Origin: a virus
Lineage: Duplodnaviria > Caudoviricetes
Direction: 5' to 3' (one strand)
DNA length: 64,000 nt
IMG/VR virus record: IMGVR_UViG_3300028591_000072
Coordinates: 224,001-288,000 of that record
In this document: piece after piece, positions 38,583-49,393 of the stretch
Layout: each line of letters begins with the position of its first letter
How positions within the stretch are numbered: position 1 is the first letter of the stretch
Position numbers and translations under genes: made by a program
The notes under the pieces: model-generated
Told to the model about the DNA's origin: nothing
Seen by the model: only the letters and a program-made list of their open reading frames with translations
The model's database searches: none

Positions 38583-38666
38583 GGGGTTGTAACCGGTAAT
38601 TGGTAGCCGAAAGGTCTGTAAAACCTTTCCCTTTTGGGACTGGTGGTTCGAGTCCACCCAACCCCA
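38583..38666 (+). tRNA. tRNA-Tyr(GTA)
   Basis: AAGGT-CTGTAAA-ACCTT, long variable arm. Confidence 0.92.
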
Positions 38667-38747
38667 CGAATGTTCAGGTAGCGCCTGACTGAGTGCAGTT
38701 ATACATCACGGGGAATCTGCACGAGAAAAAAACAAAAGGTCCGTCAA

Positions 38748-38821
38748 CGGGGTGTGGTGCAGTTGGCTAGCACACGGCATTTGGGATGCTGAAGTCGTGG
38801 GTTCGAGTCCCGCCACTCCGA
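38748..38821 (+). tRNA. tRNA-Pro(TGG)
   Basis: CGGCA-TTTGGGA-TGCTG. Confidence 0.92.
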
Positions 38822-38876
38822 CTCAGGATGTCCACCGAGTAATGCAAGCATAGGTGGAAAATCGTCCTGAACGAAA

Positions 38877-39033
38877 GGTGCTCTGGCAGATATGGTATAT
38901 GCACTGGACTGAATACAGAGTAAACTGTAAATCAAACTCTATAGTAATTCAGTTGGTAGAAACGTGAGTCGGTGGTTCGAGTCCGCCCTATAGAGCAAAT
39001 CCAGCTAAAGTGGTTCGAGTCCACTGGGCACCA
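38877..39033 (+). tRNA. tRNA-Phe(GAA) with 84-nt anticodon-loop intron (~38914-38997) containing a nested tRNA-like domain
   Basis: Removing the insert gives CTGGA-CTGAAAA-TCCAG; acceptor GGTGCTC/GGGCACC. Confidence 0.8.
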
Positions 39034-39124
39034 CAACTAAAATAACTAAATTGGTACAGATTAAAAAATAAAATTAAACGACAATGATAAAACGAAAGTA
39101 CATAAAACGAAAACATTTAAGTAG

Positions 39125-39368: not shown

Positions 39369-39429
39369 CAAAAATCTGGCACGGTTTTTGATAATGTGCA
39401 ATGGTTCTTTGAAAAAATGAAAAAAAATT

Positions 39430-39947
39430 CATTGTGCATAGGCGGGAAACCCCTATGTAGAATCTCCTAAATTCGGTGGAAATCCTTTGGTGTGCTGGTT
39501 AAACTCCAGCCTTGTAGAAATACAAGAAGAGATTTGTCTGACTAGAAAGCACTAACCAATAATGTGTAAGGACTATACCGAGCGAAAATAAGATGTAAGG
39601 GTTGAATAAACAGGTCGGCACTTTAATATGTAGAACAGAAAGAGTGAATTACATCCACAGAAACTTACTATAAACTTATAATCGTGTAGACTGAAATGGG
39701 AGATACCTAAGTTGATTTTAGCCTCATAGGAGTAATATTCGAGTAGGGAGTATAAACAGGCACTATGTCTGTCTCACTGAAAGAAGGCTATCTTGCAAGA
39801 TTTCAATATGGTAATGTCAGTTAAGACTACAACAAGCATTTAGCTCCTTGGTTCGACTCCAAGGGATGCCTGTCACGTGTTGGAAAAGGTGTCATAAGTG
39901 GGTTCCACTTGTTTGGCTATGGTAACATAGTGTGGTAAATATCAATG
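39430..39947 (+). ncRNA. Free-standing group I ribozyme-like RNA, copy 1
   Basis: P2 hairpin, P3 tctcc/ggaga, P4 ttcggt/accgag, P5 tcctt/aagga, P7 gactg/cagtt, ctatggtaacatag hairpin; no host gene visible. Confidence 0.7.
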
Positions 39948-39959
39948 TAATTTATATAT

Positions 39960-40034
39960 GGCCCCGTAGCTCAATTGGATAGTAGCGACAGCCTTCTAAG
40001 CTGTAGGTTCTGGGTTCGACTCCCAGCGGGGTCA
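39960..40034 (+). tRNA. tRNA-Arg(TCT)
   Basis: ACAGC-CTTCTAA-GCTGT. Confidence 0.92.
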
Positions 40035-40072
40035 CAAATTTAGTTCTTTGAAAAAATTGAAAAATACAAATT

Positions 40073-40673
40073 CATTGTGCATAGGCGGGAAACCCCTATG
40101 TAGAATCTCCTAAATTCGGTGGAAATCCTTTACCTAGATATGAAAAGAAGTAGGAAAATTCATCCTAAGTTTCATTAATTTGAAATAGGTTCCGCAACAC
40201 TAACAAATAATGTGTAAGGACTATACCGAGCGAAAATGAGAATAGAATGAAAAGCAAGTACAAGCAGAAGCAATTGCCTCCTTGTAGACTTCTTTATTTC
40301 TTTATATGATACTTATTGGTGGCAATTCGTAAGTATCATTTATTCTTATAAACGTGTAGAGACTGAACGGGAGATGCCTAAGTTGGAATTATATTAAGAC
40401 GATGATAGCCCAGGATTCAAAAGAGCACCCATAATGAATGGGAGGTGGTTGGTATGAAATCCAACAATTCGTTGATAATATTACTTGCAAGAATTTCAAT
40501 ATGGTAATGTCAGTCAAGACCACAATAAATAAACATACATGTCTAATGGTGAAGACAAGCGACTTGAAAAGAAAGGCTGATGTCCGAGAGGAGACGCAAA
40601 TGTGGCATTGATGTGGGTTCGATTCCCACTATGTTTGTTCGGCTATGGTAACATAGTGTGGTAAATATCAATG
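40073..40673 (+). ncRNA. Free-standing group I ribozyme-like RNA, copy 2, with two tRNA-like inserts
   Basis: Same core as copy 1 (P7 gagactg/cagtc); tRNA-like cassettes at ~40398-40474 and ~40531-40637. Confidence 0.7.
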
Positions 40674-40686
40674 TAATTTATATATT

Positions 40687-40859
40687 ACTCCTATAGTTCA
40701 AGGGATAGAACGGAAGTTTCCTATACAAGAGTAAACTTGTTAAAATCAAAACTTCATGTTGGTGAAGATGGTCACACGTGCGTTAAAATGTCTACACGAT
40801 GGTTCGAGTCCATCACATGAAGCAAACTTCTAATCTTGGTTCGAGTCCAAGTAGGAGTA
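40687..40859 (+). tRNA. tRNA-Arg(CCT) with 101-nt anticodon-loop intron (~40723-40823) containing a nested tRNA-like domain
   Basis: Removal gives GAAGT-TTCCTAA-ACTTC; acceptor ACTCCTA/TAGGAGT. Confidence 0.82.
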
Positions 40860-40913
40860 CAAAAAAAAATAACCAGATGAAAATTCTGGCACGGTCTTTG
40901 ATAATATTGCAAT

Positions 40914-41400: not shown

Positions 41401-41522
41401 TGGGATGTGGTGTAATGGTAGCACACGTAGCACTTTATGATTTCAGACACGGAATTTTACAGCAATTATTTTAGCGATGAATTTGGGTTTCCGTGGTTTT
41501 GGTTCGATTCCAGACATCCCGA
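41401..41522 (+). tRNA. tRNA-Pro(TGG) carrying a 51-nt ACAGCAA-module insertion (41428-41478)
   Basis: Removal gives CG|GAA-TTTGGGT-TTCCG. Confidence 0.7.
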
Positions 41523-41532
41523 CTAATATGAT

Positions 41533-41616
41533 GGCCAAGTGTCGTAATTGGTAACCGAGCTGGTCTCAAAAACCAGTGGGCGAAAGCCCGTGTGGGTTCG
41601 AGTCCCACCTTGGCTA
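41533..41616 (+). tRNA. tRNA-Leu(CAA)
   Basis: CTGGT-CTCAAAA-ACCAG, variable arm GGGC-GAAA-GCCC. Confidence 0.92.
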
Positions 41617-41658
41617 CAATGGTTAAAAACCAAATAATAATTAAATTAAAAATAAATT

Positions 41659-42273
41659 ATGAAGAGAATTTTATCAGTATTAATGATTGCTTTGATGGCA
41701 ATTTCTTTGACATCTTGCGATTGGTTTAAAAAGAAAAACGACAATAAGAAAGAGATTGTTGTTGAAAATTTGGTTTCGGAAGATACCAAGTACATGGTAG
41801 AAAATTATGACACATGTTTTGTTTATTACGAGACACAAATTGTTTTAAATAACTATCTTGATGAGGAATGTGATGGTTCATTTGAAAGTGTAACAAATAT
41901 ATTCCAAGGATATACACTTGTTGATAGCACGTTCCAACCTACAGTAGTTATTTTTGAACACATTGGAGATTCGTCAAGCATTGAAAAGGTTAATGATGCA
42001 TGGATGGAAGATATGGTAATGAAAAAAAATGACATTGCCATTTCATATAAGGATGCATTCAAATGTATGAACGAAGTAAATTATCCAAAACCACACGCAA
42101 AGGCTTGTACTTTGAGAAAAGAAGTAGGACCTTGCCAAGCAAACGCCCAATATATTTTTGGTAACGTTGAATCACAATTGTATGTTGATGCAATAACAGG
42201 CGATGTTTCACCAAATAGTCCAACATTCAGTTGTCTTGGCGCTGAAGAAAATGTTGAAGAAGTGGTCGAATAA
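41659..42273 (+). CDS. Lipoprotein
   Basis: Signal peptide II ending LTS-C. Confidence 0.8.
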   Translation: MKRILSVLMIALMAISLTSCDWFKKKNDNKKEIVVENLVSEDTKYMVENYDTCFVYYETQIVLNNYLDEECDGSFESVTNIFQGYTLVDSTFQPTVVIFEHIGDSSSIEKVNDAWMEDMVMKKNDIAISYKDAFKCMNEVNYPKPHAKACTLRKEVGPCQANAQYIFGNVESQLYVDAITGDVSPNSPTFSCLGAEENVEEVVE

Positions 42274-42292
42274 TGATTAAGAAATAAAAGTA

Positions 42293-42359
42293 GAAAACCT
42301 AACAGCAATTTTTAGTAAAAAATCAGAACTTTCACTTCCGACAATAACTAATGGTTTTC
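42293..42359 (+). ncRNA. ACAGCAA-module RNA carrying a Glu(TTC)-like anticodon arm
   Basis: GAAAACC/GGTTTTC stem, TAACAGCAA, TCAGAA-CTTTCAC-TTCCGA. Confidence 0.65.
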
Positions 42360-42427
42360 GTTTTTAATAAAAGGTGACACTTTTAGGATTTTTTGCACAC
42401 CGATAGACAAGGTAAAAATCCAAGTAA

Positions 42428-42580
42428 GCCTCTTTAGTATAAAGGTTATTACACTTGACTTGTACATCAGAAGGAACTGATTAAAACCAAGCTATATTTG
42501 AAAGACAAAGCATATGCTGAAACAGCGATAGTTTCATATAGCTCAATCATGAGATGGCAGTTCGATTCTGCCAAGAGGCT
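42428..42580 (+). tRNA. tRNA-Thr(TGT) with 81-nt anticodon-loop intron (~42464-42544)
   Basis: Removal gives CTTGA-CTTGTAA-TCATG; acceptor GCCTCTT/AAGAGGC. Confidence 0.8.
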
Positions 42581-42704
42581 CTAAAATCTTCGAGGGATTG
42601 ATGCTTGGTTTAGTGTTTTGGTTACCTGACGAGGTAAACTGAGACAATAATAAGGAGTAAGAAGGAAGCATGCACTTGGCTTACTGTGTAGAAGATTTTT
42701 TAAT

Positions 42705-42776
42705 GCGTTGTTAGTACAACGGTCAGTATATGGGCTTCCCAAGCCTAAGATGTCAGTTCGATTCTGATACAGCGCT
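42705..42776 (+). tRNA. tRNA-Gly(CCC)
   Basis: TGGGC-TTCCCAA-GCCTA, U73. Confidence 0.9.
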
Positions 42777-42968
42777 CAAATACGGTGCGTAGTTTACGAT
42801 ATGGGTTTGACACGAACTGGAAGCATGGGCATCAGAGCCGTGCACGAAAGAGAATCAGGAGTGAAGCCTGACTAAACAACTATATCAAAGAATGGTACGA
42901 AGACCTGGTGACAAGAACTCACCGTTACTTGTTAAAAAAGGACCTCATCAGTAGTATCATTTAGATTT

Positions 42969-43050
42969 ACCTCAGTACCCGAACTGGTATAGGGACTACA
43001 CTTAGGATGTAGCGGCTGAGCCACTGTGGGTTCGACTCCCACCTGGGGTA
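42969..43050 (+). tRNA. tRNA-Leu(TAG)
   Basis: CTACA-CTTAGGA-TGTAG. Confidence 0.9.
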
Positions 43051-43205
43051 CAAAAATAAATGGGTGAAGCTTTGTTATTGAAGCCATGGATTTTACCGTG
43101 AGAAGACGAATGTCCGCCCAAAAACACAGAGGAACTTGCCAAATTGATACTGTACAGCTTTTGGTAATAAGGATAAGTAGACTCAGAAGGTTATATTCCT
43201 TATAT

Positions 43206-43277
43206 GCGGTGTTAGTACAACGGTTAGTATATCAGCTTGCCATGCTGAAGATGTCAGTTCGATTCTGATACACCGCT
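43206..43277 (+). tRNA. tRNA-Gly(GCC)
   Basis: TCAGC-TTGCCAT-GCTGA. Confidence 0.92.
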
Positions 43278-43279
43278 CA

Positions 43280-43366
43280 AGGAAACATGCAGCAATCTTT
43301 CTCAGGTTGAAAATTTTGACTGTAAATCAAATAAGGTGGTTCGAGTCCACAAAAATATTGTTTCCT
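43280..43366 (+). ncRNA. ACAGCAA-module variant (GCAGCAA) carrying a Tyr(GTA) anticodon arm and T-arm
   Basis: AGGAAACA/TGTTTCCT stem; TTTGA-CTGTAAA-TCAAA; GTGG-TTCGAGT-CCAC. Confidence 0.7.
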
Positions 43367-43374
43367 GTTTTTAT

Positions 43375-43448
43375 GGGAGAGTAGCGTAGCTGGTTAGCGC
43401 AACGGACTGTTAATCCGTGGGTCGTGGGTTCGATTCCCACCTCTCCCG
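43375..43448 (+). tRNA. tRNA-Asn(GTT)
   Basis: ACGGA-CTGTTAA-TCCGT. Confidence 0.92.
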
Positions 43449-43453
43449 CTTGA

Positions 43454-43585
43454 AGAAATCTAACAGCAATTAATAAATTCGTTTGACTGTAAATCAAAAG
43501 GTTGTGGGTTCGAGTCCCGCTGTCGCCAAAGATTATATTAGTTGAAGGCGACATAGCTCAATGGTAGAGAAAGAAAATGATTTCT
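43454..43585 (+). ncRNA. Circularly permuted tRNA-Tyr(GTA) closed by the ACAGCAA module
   Basis: 3' half (43480-43528) precedes 5' half (43547-43569); terminal stem AGAAATC/GATTTCT. Confidence 0.8.
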
Positions 43586-43782
43586 GAGAAAAACAATGAC
43601 GCTTAACCGTCAGAACATGTTTCTAAATTCATTAAAGATTTAGCGCACTTGTAGAGCGATAGGACTACACCTAAACCGAGGTGAGTGGTGAAGTACCGAG
43701 GAAGCTTTATTTGAAAGGTTACGAGCTCTTAAACAGATGATGGCATAGTTAAGAAGGTGCCATAAACATTTCTTTTTAATAT

Positions 43783-43855
43783 GGGGGTATGGTTGAATGG
43801 CTACAATGCGGGCTTGTCACGCCCTGTGGTGCGGGTTCGAATCCCGTTATCCCCG
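43783..43855 (+). tRNA. tRNA-Asp(GTC)
   Basis: GGGC-TTGTCAC-GCCC, G73. Confidence 0.9.
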
Positions 43856-43934
43856 CAATATTGGGGTTTCGAAAAAAAACGATAAAATTGCGTATAATTT
43901 GGCTTTCGAAACTATTTATAATAAAACAAAGTTT

Positions 43935-44654
43935 ATGTGTGATGGTTTAAATTTTAAATGTAAACAGTGTGGCGTAACATTTGAAAAAACAAAGTCTGAG
44001 TTATCAAAAAACCATAATGTTGTTCCTGTCTTTTGTTCTAAAGACTGTCAACAAAAATGGTATAAAGAAAATTCGTATATAACTGTAGAATGCAAATGTT
44101 GTGGAAAAGAATTTACAATAAAAAAAGGTGAATACAATAAAAATAAAAACAAAAACTTTTTTTGTTCACATTCTTGTGCTGCTAAATTTAATAATAAAAC
44201 TAGAACAATAAAAAAAACTGTTTTTGAAAAAGATAACAAAATTAAAATATCTAAAAAGAAAGAAGATATATATGGTGTATGTCCAATTTGCGGAAATAAA
44301 AAATTTAAGAAATCAATATTGTGCAAAAAATGTAGAAACGAGCAAAAAAGAAATAACATAAAAAAGAGAACACTTGGATATTTTATTGAAGGAAAAAAAT
44401 ATTTGGGTTCAAAATGTAATGAAATAAGAAAAGACGCAAAGAGAACAATTGAAGAAAGCTGTGTCGAAAAAACTTGTGCATATTGTCATAACCACGAGTT
44501 TGATGGCATATTAGAAGTACATCATATAAAAGGAATTTTGGAGTTTGATAAAAGCACGACAATAGAAGAAATAAATGATATTAATAACCTTGTTTGGTTA
44601 TGTCCAAATCATCACAGGATGCTTGAACTTGGATTAATTAAACTTGAAAAATAG
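43935..44654 (+). CDS. HNH endonuclease with Cys-rich N-terminal repeats
   Basis: CxxC..FCSxxC repeats; EVHHIK..NLVWLCPNHH; start moved to Met47 because the listed start overlaps tRNA-Asp. Confidence 0.85.
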   Translation: MCDGLNFKCKQCGVTFEKTKSELSKNHNVVPVFCSKDCQQKWYKENSYITVECKCCGKEFTIKKGEYNKNKNKNFFCSHSCAAKFNNKTRTIKKTVFEKDNKIKISKKKEDIYGVCPICGNKKFKKSILCKKCRNEQKRNNIKKRTLGYFIEGKKYLGSKCNEIRKDAKRTIEESCVEKTCAYCHNHEFDGILEVHHIKGILEFDKSTTIEEINDINNLVWLCPNHHRMLELGLIKLEK

Positions 44655-44660
44655 ATTAAA

Positions 44661-44789
44661 AGGAATTTAACAGCAAGTTACAATAGGTAAACACATTTGT
44701 AAACAAAACAAAGATTGTTGGTTCGAGTCCAACTGCGGCTTTAGGGGAACCGATGGCTGCATAGTGAAATGGAAGATAAATAGATTCCT
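44661..44789 (+). ncRNA. Circularly permuted Cys-like tRNA (ACA loop) closed by the ACAGCAA module
   Basis: AGGAATT/GATTCCT stem; TGCGGCT-T precedes GGCTGCA; break in the D-loop. Confidence 0.7.
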
Positions 44790-44919
44790 GTAATCTAAAA
44801 AATATAAGGAAAGAAGGACACACGTACCTTAAACAAGTACGAAAAGTTAGTGCTGGCCACATAAAGTCGCCAAGCGTCTCAGGGTGGATGCACGATAGTG
44901 AAATGTAAATTTCTTAGAT

Positions 44920-44992
44920 GGGGAGTTCATTTAGCGGTTTAGGATGCAGGTTCGACAGACCTGTCACTATGGTTCGATTCCATAACACCCCA
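44920..44992 (+). tRNA. Atypical tRNA, GAC anticodon (Val?) with C33
   Basis: CAGGT-TCGACAG-ACCTG; one A-A mismatch in the acceptor. Confidence 0.6.
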
Positions 44993-44997
44993 CAATC

Positions 44998-45225
44998 GGT
45001 TTGTTGTTGATAATCAAAGGAAAGTTGAGTTGGACATGGGTTCGAGTCCCATATGGTCCACTAAGTAATTGATTTTCAAGTAAATACGGGCCATCTTGGT
45101 TTTGACAGCTAATGAGTACAATGGAAGTAGACATCCGAGATGCCATAAAATAACTGGCAACGAAAATTATGCTTATGCTTATGCAGCAGCCTAAGGCAGT
45201 GCATTGAGCAGGTTGGCAGCGAACC
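44998..45225 (+). ncRNA. ssrA: Permuted (two-piece) tmRNA
   Basis: T-arm and ATGGTCC-A (to 45060) precede GGGCCAT-CTTGGTTTTGAC (45088); G3-U70 pair; tag GNENYAYAYAAA* at 45156-45194 after ATAACT. Confidence 0.9.
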
Positions 45226-45239
45226 AAATCGCTGCACAT

Positions 45240-45315
45240 GGTCGGTTCGTCTAGTCTGGCCTAGGACATCAGGTTTTCATCCTGGGAATCATGGGTTCAA
45301 ATCCCATACCGACTA
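45240..45315 (+). tRNA. tRNA-Glu(TTC)
   Basis: TCAGG-TTTTCAT-CCTGG. Confidence 0.9.
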
Positions 45316-45527
45316 CATCCAGATAACTACAAATCTGCATTGGCAAAGTTGCTTTCCATAACAATGTGCAACCAGTTTCAGCGTTTCAACTGTAAAAATG
45401 CGAGATTTTTATTTGTTTGGCTAAACGAAAACAAATCCTTATAGTTGGTATATTGGTAAAAAAGGCGGAATGGTAGATAACCGTTTTTATCCAACATTTA
45501 TGGCGATTCATGATGTAGCCATAAAAT

Positions 45528-45601
45528 CGGCCTGTAGCTCAGTTGGTTAGAGCATCACACTGATAATGTGGGGGTCGGTGGTTCGAGTCCACCCTGGCCG
45601 A
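45528..45601 (+). tRNA. tRNA-Ile(GAT)
   Basis: TCACA-CTGATAA-TGTGG. Confidence 0.9.
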
Positions 45602-45797
45602 CAAAATTTACAAATTTATTTGTTCTTTTAAAAAATAGTTTGTATATTTAAAATAAAGAAAGTAAAAATCCCACCAAGGGCGAAACAATTGGTGGTTAGT
45701 TCTATCCCGTTAGTAATCACGGTCACAAGGTAGGAGATAAAGAACTGTAAGAGGCTCAGAAGTCGGATGACAAGAAACGATAGTTCACTTTCTAAAT

Positions 45798-45871
45798 GGG
45801 CCCATGCCTTCAATTGGTACAGGACCGCCTTTGCACGGCGACATTTATCGGTTCGAATCCGATTGGGTCCA
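45798..45871 (+). tRNA. tRNA-Ala(TGC)
   Basis: CGCC-TTTGCAC-GGCG, G3-U70. Confidence 0.88.
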
Positions 45872-46042
45872 CATCTTTATTATTATTATAATATGAAGAT
45901 GGTAGCGCCACAACGTAACGTAATTGGTCCCTGATGTTCTTCAAACCAATTCCCTATCGTAGTTAGGGTAAAGTCTTTACACGAGTTTCTATAATACGAA
46001 AGCCAAAATGTACAGTTTATGTCGGAAGAAACTCTTTATAAT

Positions 46043-46167
46043 GCCAAGGTAGCTCAGTGGTTTAGAGCAATGGGAGTGTATAAATGATTTTTGATTAAAA
46101 ATCTAACAGCAACTTCCAAATACCTATGTAAACCCATTGGTCGGAGGTTCGAATCCTTCTCTTGGCT
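46043..46167 (+). tRNA. tRNA (GTA or TGT depending on junction) with a 51-nt ACAGCAA-module insertion (~46075-46125)
   Basis: GCCAAGG/TCTTGGC acceptor, ATGGG/CCCAT anticodon stem; insert contains GATTTTT-GATT-AAAAATC-TAACAGCAA. Confidence 0.7.
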
Positions 46168-46175
46168 CAAAAAAT

Positions 46176-46252
46176 GCATGTATGAAAGCAGACGGGATGT
46201 GCTTCTGTCGTAATTCGGACAGGATATGTTGGTTCGAATCCAACTGCATGCG
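46176..46252 (+). ncRNA. Atypical tRNA-like RNA with 8-nt anticodon loop
   Basis: GCATGTA/TGCATGC; CTGTC-GTAATTCG-GACAG; GTTGG-TTCGAAT-CCAAC. Confidence 0.55.
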
Positions 46253-46257
46253 CAATA

Positions 46258-46331
46258 GGAAAACATACAGCAAGTTTTATCAAATTCAAGTTACAATCTT
46301 TTAAATTGTGGGACTAAATTTTTTGTTTTCC
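46258..46331 (+). ncRNA. ACAGCAA-module RNA carrying a Lys(TTT) anticodon arm
   Basis: GGAAAACA/TGTTTTCC stem, TACAGCAA, ACAAT-CTTTTAA-ATTGT. Confidence 0.7.
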
Positions 46332-46337
46332 GTTTAT

Positions 46338-46419
46338 GGGGAAGTGGTGGAACTGGTAGACACGTATGCCCAAGGAGCATATGCCGAAAGGCGTGTGGGT
46401 TCAACTCCCACCTTCCCTA
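46338..46419 (+). tRNA. tRNA-Leu(AAG) with C33
   Basis: TATGC-CCAAGGA-GCATA, Leu-type D-loop and variable arm. Confidence 0.8.
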
Positions 46420-47138: not shown

Positions 47139-47196
47139 CGCTAATTTCGACTTTACTTTTTCACCCTTTTTACTATTTATGTATAAAAGTGGTTTT

Positions 47197-47871
47197 ATGA
47201 AAGAAAAAGAAATAGATAAAATAAGCGTGGAACAAATAAACGAAGCTTTTGAAAAGTGTGGTAATCTTAAAGAAGTTGTTTTTTATTTTGGAAAAAAATA
47301 CAATGGCGGAAGTCAACGATTTGTATATGCTTTAATGGAAAAAGCCGGAATAAAGTATTCTGATTTTTTCAAAAAAGGGAAAGAGTATTATAAAAAAAAT
47401 GTAAAGTATTGTGAAAATTGTGGAAAAGAATTGCCATATGAAAAAAGGAATAATAAATTTTGTTCTTCTTCTTGTGCAGCATCTAAAAACAATCTTGGGG
47501 TAAGAAGAAACTTTAATCCAAATAAACCAATAATACAAACAAAAGAAGAAAAAGAAAGACTGAAGTTGGAAAGATGGAAGAATGGAGAAAATTTTTTAGT
47601 TGGCTCTTGTGAAATACCAGTTTTTATAAGAAGATATTTGTTCAGTAAAAACGAATGTAAATGTGAGCGATGTGGGTGGGGTGAAATAAATGAGGACACA
47701 GGAAAAATTCCGTTGCAAATACATCACATAGATGGTGATTGCACAAACAACAAAGAAGAAAATTTACAACTACTTTGTCCAAATTGTCATAGTTTGACTA
47801 ACACATTTGGTTCGTTGAACAAAAAGTCAAAAAGATTCCATAGAAAAAAGAAAACTTTAAAAGATATATAG
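47197..47871 (+). CDS. HNH endonuclease
   Basis: CERCG..LQIHHIDGD..NN...NLQLLCPNCH. Confidence 0.9.
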   Translation: MKEKEIDKISVEQINEAFEKCGNLKEVVFYFGKKYNGGSQRFVYALMEKAGIKYSDFFKKGKEYYKKNVKYCENCGKELPYEKRNNKFCSSSCAASKNNLGVRRNFNPNKPIIQTKEEKERLKLERWKNGENFLVGSCEIPVFIRRYLFSKNECKCERCGWGEINEDTGKIPLQIHHIDGDCTNNKEENLQLLCPNCHSLTNTFGSLNKKSKRFHRKKKTLKDI

Positions 47872-48457: not shown

Positions 48458-49393
48458 ATGTCAAATAATAAATTAAAGCAGCGTTTTGTAAAAGATTACA
48501 ATCTTCCAATCAATGTGTTTGATGAAGAATTGTTTAATTATTATATGAATTTGTATCATTTTTTTCCTAAGGAAAAGTGGGAAAATTTGAAAAAAGACAT
48601 ACAAGACAAATATCGTGGGAATGTTGAAGTATGGCTTGAGTATTGCGCTGAAGTTAGGGATAAGGCCATTAATGGCGTTATGGAAACTCAAGAATATAAA
48701 GAGTTCAACAACAGTGATTTATCAAAATATAAATTAACGAAAAATATTGGAGAGCATAGTTATTATACCAATGAAACAAATGGGTGCAGGTTTGTGTCAA
48801 TTGATTTGAAGAAGGCAAATTTCCAAGCCCTTAAATACGTTGGTGTTATCGGCGATAAGACATATGGTGATTTTATTGAGCGTTTTGATGGAAGCGATTA
48901 CATTAAAGACAGCAAATATTTGAGACAGGTGATTTTTGGTAAGATGAATCCTGGCAGAATTATTACCATAGAAAAATATATTATGGAAAAAATAATGTCA
49001 ATTGCCGATGAGGTTTTACCTCCTGAGTTTAAATTATATTCTCAAAACAGCGATGAACTTGTATATAAACAGACAGGAAGTTTTTATGGTGACATAAGAA
49101 TTATATGCGCTGTTATTGAAAAAATGGTTCTTGATAATTTTGGTGTTGAGGTACGTGCTGAATATGTTGAGGTTACAAAACTTCCAATTGTTAATTGCAA
49201 TGGTAATAATGTTGATGCTTTTGTCCGTAAGAACATTAATACGGGAGAAGAGGTTCTGAAAAAGGCATCAACAACATTTTATCCGCAGATTTACAAATTA
49301 TGGAAAGGAATGGAAATTGAAGATAGAGACCTTGTTTTCTATTTCGAGGACCAATTATGTAGATTTAATAATCCTTTAAAATTGATTGAATAA
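48458..49393 (+). CDS. Hypothetical protein with polymerase-palm-like motifs
   Basis: FVSIDLKKANF and NSDELVY. Confidence 0.5.
   Translation: MSNNKLKQRFVKDYNLPINVFDEELFNYYMNLYHFFPKEKWENLKKDIQDKYRGNVEVWLEYCAEVRDKAINGVMETQEYKEFNNSDLSKYKLTKNIGEHSYYTNETNGCRFVSIDLKKANFQALKYVGVIGDKTYGDFIERFDGSDYIKDSKYLRQVIFGKMNPGRIITIEKYIMEKIMSIADEVLPPEFKLYSQNSDELVYKQTGSFYGDIRIICAVIEKMVLDNFGVEVRAEYVEVTKLPIVNCNGNNVDAFVRKNINTGEEVLKKASTTFYPQIYKLWKGMEIEDRDLVFYFEDQLCRFNNPLKLIE

What the first reader, a model, noticed from the sequence alone, without database searches (positions are those of the whole stretch)
41428..46125. Two ACAGCAA insertions of identical length and spacing in unrelated tRNAs
Seen: the Pro insert (41428-41478) and the insert at 46075-46125 are both 51 nt, laid out as 11 nt + 18-nt hairpin + 9-nt T(T/A)ACAGCAA + 13 nt. 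Their sequences and insertion sites differ (anticodon stem 28/29 versus about 31/32). Inference: a ruler-like constraint, as expected for a fixed protein footprint or an endonuclease cutting at set distances. Caveats: the second junction can slide, giving a GTA or TGT anticodon, and the Pro insert contains an ACGGAA that can also pair with the 3' anticodon stem.
Basis: partly seen in the sequence, partly recalled or inferred. Interest (0 to 1): 0.7.

Follow-up and report, generated by a model that had tools for sequence, protein, structure and literature searches.

The report
Shared RNA handle inside two tRNAs
Two spare tRNA genes of a 300-kb gut phage each carry a 51-base insert that is a conserved RNA "handle", the same one that closes many small tRNA-mimic RNAs in related phages and probably docks a Ro60-like protein, so the inserts are unlikely to be introns cut out by a measuring enzyme.

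Summary
Both inserts (41428-41478 in tRNA-Pro UGG, 46075-46125 in a tRNA-Tyr-like GUA gene) are 51 nt, laid out 11 + 18-nt hairpin + 9-nt WWACAGCAA + 13.

In ten more insert-bearing tRNAs from seven related phage contigs, the hairpin (17-19 nt) and the 9-mer stay constant. The linkers vary: 7-14 nt and 4-19 nt, total 42-60 nt, at sites 28/29 to 31/32.

The constant 27 nt is a handle: a covarying 6-7-bp helix followed by NWRCAGCAA. I collected 54 copies from the window and nine related contigs. In 42 of them the two helix strands are the ends of a free-standing RNA that holds an anticodon arm, an arm plus T arm, or a circularly permuted tRNA.

At least 10 of the 12 interrupted tRNAs duplicate an intact tRNA with the same anticodon.

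Relatives encode a DUF2828/vWA protein whose model matches Ro60. In three relatives the handle sits in that gene's leader and ends 4 nt before the ATG. This contig (82% complete) has no such gene.

Best reading: Y-RNA-like tRNA mimics. This scan has noted the same handle before on other DNA. I found no paper or Rfam family for it.

The parts
41401..41523 (+). tRNA-Pro(UGG) body interrupted at 28/29 of the anticodon stem; second copy of an intact tRNA-Pro(UGG)
   Evidence: ARAGORN -i; junction search; not detected without intron mode or by Rfam
41428..41478 (+). 51-nt insert: 5' linker 41428-41438, P1 hairpin 41439-41456, 9-mer TTACAGCAA 41457-41465, 3' linker 41466-41478
41447..41457 (+). ACACGGAATTT, an internal copy of the spliced exon junction (ACACG 41423-41427 + GAATTT 41479-41484); competes with P1 for pairing
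46043..46168 (+). tRNA-Tyr-like body (GUA, short variable region) interrupted at 31/32
   Evidence: ARAGORN -i; Rfam tRNA 50.5 bits
46075..46125 (+). 51-nt insert: 5' linker 46075-46085, P1 hairpin 46086-46103, 9-mer TAACAGCAA 46104-46112, 3' linker 46113-46125
42293..42359 (+). free-standing handle RNA: P1 GAAAACC/GGTTTTC + TAACAGCAA, payload an anticodon arm with loop CTTTCAC (Glu UUC-like)
43280..43366 (+). handle RNA: P1 AGGAAAC/GTTTCCT + ATGCAGCAA, payload anticodon arm (GUA) plus T arm
43454..43585 (+). handle RNA: P1 AGAAATC/GATTTCT + TAACAGCAA closing a circularly permuted tRNA-Tyr-like body (break at 24/25, acceptor closed by an 18-nt loop)
   Evidence: (YrlA model 26.8 bits, tRNA 29.3 bits)
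44661..44789 (+). handle RNA: P1 AGGAATT/GATTCCT + TAACAGCAA closing a second permuted tRNA-like body
46258..46331 (+). handle RNA: P1 GGAAAAC/GTTTTCC + ATACAGCAA, payload anticodon arm with loop CTTTTAA (Lys UUU-like)
38748..38822 (+). intact tRNA-Pro(UGG), makes the interrupted copy redundant
38583..38667 (+). intact 85-nt tRNA-Tyr(GUA) of the bacterial long-variable-arm type, makes the interrupted copy redundant

Best explanation
The two inserts are copies of one conserved RNA handle. The handle is a 6-7-bp helix (P1), here closed by a 4-6-nt loop, followed by single-stranded NWRCAGCAA. It is joined through two free-length linkers into the 5' strand of the anticodon stem of an otherwise complete tRNA body.

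The same handle also occurs opened up. In that form its two strands are the 5' and 3' ends of free-standing RNAs that display an anticodon arm, an arm plus T arm, or a circularly permuted tRNA. Interrupted and permuted forms therefore give the same object: a tRNA or tRNA part with the handle projecting near positions 24-32.

These RNAs are most likely kept whole and act as Y-RNA-like tRNA mimics. The handle would be the docking site of a Ro60-like ring protein (DUF2828 N-domain plus vWA/MIDAS C-domain) that related phages encode.

Shown here: the layout, the covariation of P1, the invariance of CAGCA, the topological variants, the redundancy of the interrupted tRNAs, the Ro60-like fold of the relatives' protein, and the handle in that gene's leader.

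Inferred: that the protein binds the handle, that the inserts are not removed, and what the RNP does. The equal 11 and 13-nt linkers in this genome are not a family rule.
For: 1. P1 pairs in all 42 cells of seven aligned hairpin copies. Two pairs change on both sides. Covariation score is 0.571 against 0.272 for shuffles (0/500 reach it) and 0.08-0.18 for slid registers.
2. Across 54 modules there are 23 different proximal strands, with A-T/T-A/C-G/G-C or A-T/G-C alternation at pairs 2, 5, 6 and 7. CAGCA is invariant.
3. Partner enrichment is 61/117 against 17/117.
4. A permuted tRNA-Thr in G014 breaks at 29/30, with 10 + 10-nt linkers. That is the same site as the inserts in G004, G006-G009 and one of the G003 inserts.
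5. For at least 10 of the 12 interrupted tRNAs, an intact tRNA with the same anticodon lies in the same island. The exceptions are G004 Lys UUU (none in the fetched 20 kb) and G003 'Gly', whose anticodon reading is uncertain. The Tyr copy here lacks the long variable arm that the phage's own intact tRNA-Tyr has.
6. DUF2828 + DUF7788/vWA ORFs of 537-557 aa are present in G001, G002 and G009, and more weakly in G006-G008 and G014.
7. The AlphaFold model (pLDDT 72.6) has Ro60/TROVE structures as its 11 best PDB matches over its full length, probability 1.00, TM 0.34-0.57.
8. In G001, G009 and pig-gut contig L161 the gene's leader holds the handle. P1 differs in sequence but stays paired (AGAATTT/GAATTCT, AGAAATT/AATTTCT, AGAAAAT/ATTTTCT), and its 3' strand ends 4 nt before the ATG each time.
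9. Among genomes at least 90% complete, three have both handle and protein and one has neither.
Against: - This contig has no DUF2828, DUF7788 or TROVE gene. Pfam searches, tblastn and a profile of six homologues found nothing at E <= 10.
- The closest relative, G002, carries the gene within about 8.8 kb that is absent at the matching place here. Here the partner must lie in the missing ~18% of the genome, come from the host, or not be needed.
- Only 3 of 8 leaders examined hold the handle.
- No binding or expression data exist.
- Thermodynamic folding forms P1 in only 5 of 11 precursors, and not in the Pro one.
- Two unrelated linker pairs of identical length in one genome remain mildly improbable under this reading.
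Confidence: 0.6

Rival explanations
1. The handle is a splice and processing mark, a bacterial-virus analogue of the archaeal bulge-helix-bulge motif. An unknown endonuclease and ligase would remove it from interrupted tRNAs. They would also rejoin permuted tRNAs, whose acceptor loop is then opened by RNase P and RNase Z. The product would be working tRNAs.
For: - The same module occurs both as a closed hairpin inside tRNAs and as a leader-trailer stem around permuted tRNAs. This is the way BHB motifs are used in archaea and red algae (established knowledge).
- Removing the inserts restores clean cloverleaves.
- The phage also carries a permuted tmRNA, so permuted RNA genes are processed in this system.
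Against: - The junctions lie 7-14 and 4-19 nt from the module, at four different stem positions, so there is no fixed cut geometry.
- The contig has no EndA, RtcB or Rnl2-type ligase.
- The interrupted tRNAs are redundant with intact ones.
- Many members carry only an anticodon arm and cannot become tRNAs.
- No bulge-helix-bulge appears in the folds.
Confidence: 0.15
2. The RNAs are decoys or sponges for host factors that attack or use anticodon arms, such as anticodon nucleases or modification enzymes. The handle would serve only as a stabilising or end-defining chassis, with no Ro60-like partner.
For: - The payloads are mostly well-formed 7-nt anticodon loops of Lys UUU, Glu UUC, Gln UUG, Tyr GUA, Pro UGG, Cys GCA and Gly UCC.
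- This genome keeps at least ten handle RNAs (eight free-standing, two inside tRNAs) without any Ro60-like gene.
Against: - A plain chassis would not need seven near-invariant single-stranded bases.
- It would not explain the handle in the leader of the Ro60-like gene.
- No nuclease or target was identified here.
Confidence: 0.15
3. The interrupted tRNAs are dead genes hit by a small mobile DNA element, and the equal lengths reflect one element size.
For: - Homing-type HNH endonuclease genes lie in the island.
- The interrupted copies are redundant.
- The two adjacent G004 inserts are 80% identical (35/44, counted by eye from the sequences printed).
Against: - P1 keeps pairing through compensatory changes.
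- The CAU insert is nearly identical, position for position, in G001 and G003, and the tRNA bodies remain intact.
- Insert sizes differ from 42 to 60 nt.
- The two linker pairs here are unrelated in sequence.
Confidence: 0.05

Closest known systems
Ro60 (Rsr) with Y RNAs, especially the tRNA-like YrlA (Rfam RF02553; Chen et al. 2014, PMC4201824)
   Same: - A small RNA whose closing stem with a conserved unpaired element is joined to a tRNA-like module.
- The permuted order T arm, closed acceptor stem, D arm is the same; the YrlA model aligns to 43476-43605.
- Relatives encode a full-length Ro60-shaped protein.
   Different: - The score is far below the family threshold (26.8 against 69 bits).
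- The handle sequence is unlike the YrlA stem.
- The protein is DUF2828 and does not match TROVE by sequence.
- A full anticodon arm is kept.
- The handle can sit inside an uninterrupted tRNA body.
- No Ro60-like gene is present in this contig, whereas YrlA genes lie next to rsr.
Class I RNAs of dictyostelid social amoebae (Kjellin et al. 2021, PMC7919456)
   Same: - A short stem joins the 5' and 3' ends.
- A conserved unpaired motif lies directly 3' of the 5' stem strand, and the rest of the RNA is variable.
- The paper's invariant T3, C6, C9, A10 and A11 of an 11-nt motif fit xxTTACAGCAA. The full motif letters are from my memory only.
   Different: - No Rfam match to a Dictyostelium Class I model was seen at E <= 1 (island) or E <= 10 (46245-46345).
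- The host kingdom, promoters and known protein partner (an RRM protein) are different.
- The phage RNAs carry tRNA parts.
Protein-spliced tRNA introns and permuted or split tRNA genes of archaea and red algae (BHB motif, EndA, RtcB; review PMC4090602)
   Same: - One structural module is used both inside tRNAs, at non-canonical stem positions, and as a leader-trailer stem around permuted tRNAs.
   Different: - No bulge-helix-bulge motif and no EndA.
- The distances from the module to the junctions vary.
- The setting is bacterial-virus.
- The interrupted tRNAs are redundant with intact ones.
'Enigmatic' tRNA introns of Lak megaphages (Devoto et al. 2019, PMC6784885)
   Same: - Short non-group-I inserts in tRNA genes of very large gut phages.
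   Different: - Those lie just 3' of the anticodon and end in a nested tRNA-like element.
- ACAGCAA does not occur in the stored intron table, which was cut when stored.
- This window holds three inserts of that other kind separately (38877-39034, 40687-40860, 42428-42581).

Membership tests
YrlA / Y RNA with Ro60 | Match to the Rfam YrlA covariance model at its gathering score | tested here: not met
   26.8 bits against 69, for the permuted element only. The two inserts give no match.
YrlA / Y RNA with Ro60 | RNA gene encoded beside a Ro60/TROVE-type protein gene | tested here: not met
   G000 has no TROVE, DUF2828 or DUF7788. In relatives G001, G009 and L161 the handle does lie in the leader of a Ro60-like gene.
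YrlA / Y RNA with Ro60 | tRNA-like module attached to a closing stem that bears a conserved unpaired element | tested here: met
YrlA / Y RNA with Ro60 | Physical binding of the RNA by the Ro60-type protein | not testable with these tools
   Needs EMSA or RIP.
BHB-type protein-spliced tRNA introns | Splicing endonuclease (EndA, PF01974) available | tested here: not met
   None in G000 at E <= 0.1. The host was not examined.
BHB-type protein-spliced tRNA introns | Bulge-helix-bulge at both junctions, with a fixed relation of cut sites to the motif | tested here: not met
   No BHB in the folds. The junctions lie 7-14 and 4-19 nt from the module.
BHB-type protein-spliced tRNA introns | RNA ligase (RtcB or Rnl2-type) available | tested here: not met
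   None in G000. Bacteroides thetaiotaomicron, a control genome that may be unrelated to the unidentified host, has RtcB, so a host ligase remains possible.
Group I self-splicing tRNA introns | Group I core (P3-P9), usually more than 200 nt, inserted in the anticodon loop | tested here: not met
   The inserts are 51 nt and lie in the stem. No Rfam group I match covers them.
Lak-type tRNA introns | Insert just 3' of the anticodon, with a short hairpin and a nested tRNA-like element | tested here: not met
   Different site and content.
Dictyostelid Class I RNA | Terminal stem plus conserved motif next to the 5' strand | tested here: met
   The architecture and the invariant positions agree for the free-standing members.
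Dictyostelid Class I RNA | Match to the family's covariance model | tested here: not met
   No such match at E <= 10 on 46245-46345 or at E <= 1 on the island.

The most novel reading that the evidence does not exclude
The helix + ACAGCAA module is the recognition mark of a still unknown cut-and-rejoin system in bacteria or their giant phages. That system would turn interrupted and circularly permuted tRNA genes into working tRNAs. It would be a functional counterpart of archaeal BHB splicing with a different motif and different enzymes. The Ro60-like ring protein could be its RNA-holding subunit.
Probability: 0.1. Interest if true: 0.9.

Novelty: new variant of a known kind. Interest (0 to 1): 0.55.

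Why it matters
If the handle docks a Ro60-like protein, these phages carry a second, sequence-unrelated kind of Ro/Y-RNA particle. Its RNA partners include whole tRNAs with the docking site built into the anticodon stem. That would show how a virus can tag tRNA look-alikes for one protein.

It also bears on annotation. Short "introns" called in phage tRNA genes by intron-tolerant tRNA finders need not be introns.

For the finding as written, the practical result is negative. Equal insert length is not a conserved rule and gives no evidence for a measuring nuclease.

Tried and rejected
1. A trans or cis pairing partner for ACAGCAA. No TTGCTGT occurs in the island, and the G-U-tolerant variants fall only at unrelated sites.
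2. A second conserved helix (P2) between the U-rich run after the 9-mer and the A-rich run before the distal P1 strand. Mean duplex energy was -1.22, against -0.95 +/- 0.21 for permuted partners. That is not significant and reflects only a compositional bias. One A-U to U-G double change between G006 and G008 was seen by eye.
3. Known RNA families, including small ribozymes. Rfam gave nothing on the inserts.
4. Phage-encoded RtcB, TROVE, Rnl2 ligase, EndA, DUF2828 and DUF7788 in G000. All were absent. A weak tblastn hit at 221.7 kb lies in a 1597-aa ORF and is spurious.
5. Whole-collection pattern scans. Most hits were chance; they added about 20 free-standing members and no new interrupted tRNA.
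6. DUF2828 genes in bacterial MAG contigs. Six loci were found, with no handle within 3 kb.
7. Literature searches for phage tRNA introns, permuted tRNAs in phages and anticodon decoys found no description of this module.
8. A CRISPR-repeat mimic (RNA anti-CRISPR) reading was considered from memory only and not tested.
9. Thermodynamic folding alone does not support P1 in most precursors. The case for P1 rests on covariation.
Full report
**Setting**

The window is bases 224001-288000 of a single 302,581-bp virus contig. It has 33% G+C and an estimated completeness of 82%. A tRNA island runs on the + strand from about 38.2 to 48.2 kb. ARAGORN finds 26 genes there (25 tRNA calls and a permuted-tmRNA call), and 29 tRNA genes when introns are allowed. 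Rfam adds a permuted tmRNA at 45002-45194, scoring 65 bits against a threshold of 47.

**The observation**

Both inserts are exactly as described.
- Pro, 41428-41478: TAGCACTTTAT / GATTTC-AGACAC-GGAATT / TTACAGCAA / TTATTTTAGCGAT.
- Tyr, 46075-46125: AGTGTATAAAT / GATTTTT-GATT-AAAAATC / TAACAGCAA / CTTCCAAATACCT.

ARAGORN -i reports Pro(tgg) i(32,51) and Tyr(gta) i(33,51). A search that fixes the T arm and acceptor stem, then asks which deletion restores a 5-bp anticodon stem and a 7-nt loop, gives these results:
- Pro: break at 28/29, stem CG|GAA, loop TTTGGGT.
- Tyr: break at 31/32, stem ATGGG, loop ATGTAAA. A 53-nt sliding alternative also exists.

Identity between the two inserts is 3/11, 10/18, 8/9 and 3/13 for the four parts. 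Only the hairpin and the 9-mer are related.

Both interrupted genes are second copies. An intact tRNA-Pro(UGG) lies at 38748-38822. An intact 85-nt tRNA-Tyr(GUA) with a long variable arm lies at 38583-38667. The interrupted Tyr gene has a short variable region.

**The same module in other topologies**

In the window, the 7 nt just before each intergenic WWRCAGCAA pair perfectly with 7 nt lying 44-109 nt downstream.

| Coordinates | P1 strands | Payload |
|---|---|---|
| 42293-42359 | GAAAACC/GGTTTTC | Glu-like anticodon arm |
| 43280-43366 | AGGAAAC/GTTTCCT | GUA arm plus T arm |
| 43454-43585 | AGAAATC/GATTTCT | permuted tRNA-Tyr-like |
| 44661-44789 | AGGAATT/GATTCCT | permuted tRNA-like |
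| 46258-46331 | GGAAAAC/GTTTTCC | Lys-like arm |

Two or three more lie on the minus strand near 18 kb of the contig. One of them sits directly behind a promoter-like TTTG..TATATTTA box.

In the whole contig the 9-mer is intergenic nine times. Seven of these are handle copies: six in the island and one at 18.4 kb. One at 4.5 kb and one at 19.4 kb showed no handle. The other 49 occurrences lie in coding sequence, mostly in sense orientation.

Cutting the loop of the insert hairpin and closing the acceptor ends gives the permuted form, so the two forms are circular permutations of one object. The Rfam YrlA model aligns to the T arm, closed acceptor and D arm of 43476-43605, but only at 26.8 bits against a threshold of 69.

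**Relatives**

A protein encoded just downstream of the island (48458-49393) retrieved 18 related IMG/VR contigs, 29-73% identical. I located their tRNA islands with the Rfam tRNA model and fetched them.

A scan for NWRCAGCAR with a perfect partner found the module in G001, G003, G004, G006-G009, G014 and G018. G017 has a variant, TGCAGCAA.

Controls:
- 61 of 117 motif sites have a perfect 7-bp partner.
- With the strand reversed, 17 of 117 do.
- Three control motifs gave 1/29, 4/51 and 14/48.

Across 54 modules there are 23 distinct proximal strands. Pair types alternate at positions 2, 5, 6 and 7, and CAGCA is invariant.

On seven aligned hairpin copies:
- All 42 cells pair.
- Two pairs change on both sides.
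- The covariation score is 0.571, against 0.272 for shuffles (0 of 500 reach it) and 0.08-0.18 for slid registers.

**Test of the ruler**

Twelve tRNAs carry the hairpin form (G004 Lys read by eye).

| Genome, tRNA | Site | 5' linker + hairpin + 9-mer + 3' linker | Total |
|---|---|---|---|
| window Pro | 28/29 | 11+18+9+13 | 51 |
| window Tyr | 31/32 | 11+18+9+13 | 51 |
| G004 Lys UUU | 29/30 | 8+18+9+9 | 44 |
| G004 Pro UGG | 29/30 | 8+18+9+9 | 44 |
| G009 Gln UUG | 29/30 | 7+18+9+10 | 44 |
| G001 CAU | 28/29 | 13+18+9+12 | 52 |
| G003 CAU | 28/29 | 13+18+9+12 | 52 |
| G003 Gly-like (uncertain) | 29/30 | 10+19+9+4 | 42 |
| G003 Lys UUU | 28/29 or 29/30 | 13-14+19+9+18-19 | 59-60 |
| G007 Thr UGU | 29/30 | 11+17+9+11 | 48 |
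| G008 Thr UGU | 29/30 | 10+17+9+11 | 47 |
| G006 Ile UAU | 29/30 | 10+17+9+11 | 47 |

Permuted members add 10+10 at 29/30 (G014) and 9+10 (5' + 3' linker) at 24/25 (window).

Only the 17-19-nt hairpin and the 9-mer are fixed. The linkers and the site are not.

Equal layouts within one genome occur twice:
- In G004 the two inserts sit in adjacent genes and are 80% identical (35/44, my count by eye from the sequences), so they are recent copies.
- In the window the linkers are unrelated in sequence, so the equality is either coincidence (roughly a few per cent, my estimate from the observed spreads) or a soft, genome-specific constraint.

G003, with three different layouts, argues against a general within-genome rule.

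**Are these introns?**

At least 10 of the 12 interrupted tRNAs have an intact tRNA with the same anticodon in the same island. The exceptions are G004 Lys UUU and the G003 Gly-like gene, whose anticodon reading is uncertain. CAU is ambiguous between Met and Ile.

The contig has no EndA, RtcB or Rnl2-type ligase. Many family members carry only an anticodon arm. The folds show no bulge-helix-bulge.

Devoto et al. (PMC6784885) reported unexplained tRNA introns in Lak megaphages. Those lie 3' of the anticodon and contain a nested tRNA-like element, and ACAGCAA is absent from the stored intron table. The window has three of that other kind.

Splicing cannot be excluded without RNA data. I rate it at 0.15.

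**A likely protein partner**

Earlier notes of this scan, made on other genomes, named DUF2828 as a Ro60-like partner. I tested that here.

PF11443 is absent from G000. It is present in G001, G002 and G009, and more weakly in G006-G008 and G014. These 537-557-aa proteins combine DUF2828 with a DUF7788/vWA domain and an invariant DTSGSM.

A sequence profile finds no solved relative. An AlphaFold model built on 36 sequences has pLDDT 72.6 and pTM 0.70. Its 11 best PDB matches are all Ro60/TROVE proteins over the full length, with probability 1.00 and TM 0.34-0.57. They include Xenopus and human Ro60, Deinococcus Rsr and the Ro60 of Thermus phage phiLo.

In G001, G009 and pig-gut contig L161, the leader of this gene contains the handle. 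P1 differs in sequence but stays paired. The 3' strand ends 4 nt before the ATG each time. That arrangement would let the protein repress its own translation; this is an inference. Five other leaders lack the handle.

Among genomes at least 90% complete, G001, G006 and G014 have both handle and protein, and G013 has neither.

The exception is the genome under study. A profile of six homologues finds nothing in its ORFs at E <= 10. G002 carries the gene within about 8.8 kb that has no counterpart between the matching genes of G000.

**Other resemblances**

Dictyostelid Class I RNAs have a short terminal stem and an 11-nt motif next to the 5' strand. Their invariant T3, C6, C9, A10 and A11 (PMC7919456) fit xxTTACAGCAA. 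No Rfam model of that family matched, so this is a likeness of design and does not establish membership.

**Oddities of the two inserts**

The Pro insert contains ACACGGAATTT (41447-41457), an exact copy of the spliced junction. In the minimum-energy fold this copy pairs with the 3' strand of the anticodon stem, and P1 does not form.

In the Tyr precursor, ACTTCCA just after the motif can pair with TGGGAGT (anticodon-stem 5' strand plus linker) around an intact P1.

Three other inserts (G001 CAU, G003 CAU, G003 Lys) have a second upstream partner for the 5' strand of P1. Whether these alternatives are switches or traces of origin is open.

**Verdict**

The ruler and measuring-nuclease inference is not supported. 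The fixed-footprint idea holds only for the 27-nt core.

The object is a handle-tagged tRNA mimic of a family that is not in Rfam and that I did not find in the literature. It is best compared with Y RNAs.

Noticed in passing
window 45002-45194 (+): Circularly permuted (two-piece type) tmRNA gene inside the phage tRNA island. Rfam tmRNA_permuted scores 65 bits against a threshold of 47. ARAGORN reads the tag as GNENYAYAYAAA*.
   Followed up: no
window 38877-39034, 40687-40860, 42428-42581 (+): Three tRNA genes with 81-101-nt inserts just 3' of the anticodon. Each insert is a short purine-loop hairpin, an A-rich linker and a nested tRNA-like element. This is the Lak-megaphage type and is distinct from the ACAGCAA inserts.
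   Followed up: partly
window 41447-41457 (+): ACACGGAATTT inside the Pro insert is an exact copy of the junction made by joining 41427 to 41479. GTAGCAC is also repeated, at 41418-41424 and 41427-41433. This may be a trace of how the insert arose, or an alternative-pairing switch.
   Followed up: partly
L151:1230-1443 (G001), L152:1230-1440 (G009), L161:1400-1503: The handle (P1 + WAACAGCAA + 19-23-nt loop) lies in the 5' leader of the Ro60-like DUF2828 gene. Its 3' strand ends 4 nt before the ATG in all three, and P1 differs in sequence but stays paired. It looks like translational autoregulation.
   Followed up: partly
G000 contig about 18.06-18.45 kb, minus strand (outside the window): A second small tRNA cluster holds two more handle RNAs. 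One (AGAAAAC TAACAGCAA .. GTTTTCT) sits directly behind a Bacteroidota-type promoter box. The other (AGAAAGC GTACAGCAA) has its partner GCTTTCT about 215 nt downstream, around a larger unknown RNA.
   Followed up: no
L133 (G001) and L134 (G003) CAU inserts; L134 Lys insert: The 5' strand of P1 has two possible partners, one on each side (AAAAGC-GCTTTT-AAAAGC; CTGAAAA-TTTTCAG-..GGAAAC). The upstream one wins in minimum-energy folds.
   Followed up: no
window 43797-44654 and 47179-47871 (+): Two cysteine-rich, HNH-type ORFs lie within the tRNA island; I judged them by eye as likely homing endonucleases. The first ends 7 nt before the handle RNA at 44661.
   Followed up: no
L138 (G017), reverse-complement coordinates 5082 and 5260 of L138: Variant handles with TGCAGCAA in place of ACAGCAA and G+C-richer P1 (AAGGTGA/TCACCTT, AAGGCAG/CTGCCTT), in a more distant relative that showed no DUF2828 match.
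   Followed up: no
window 39380-40690 (+): Two ~600-nt paralogous structured RNAs lie between tRNA genes. Each ends in a T-arm-like element. Earlier notes call them exon-less group I-like RNAs. They contain no complement to ACAGCAA.
   Followed up: no
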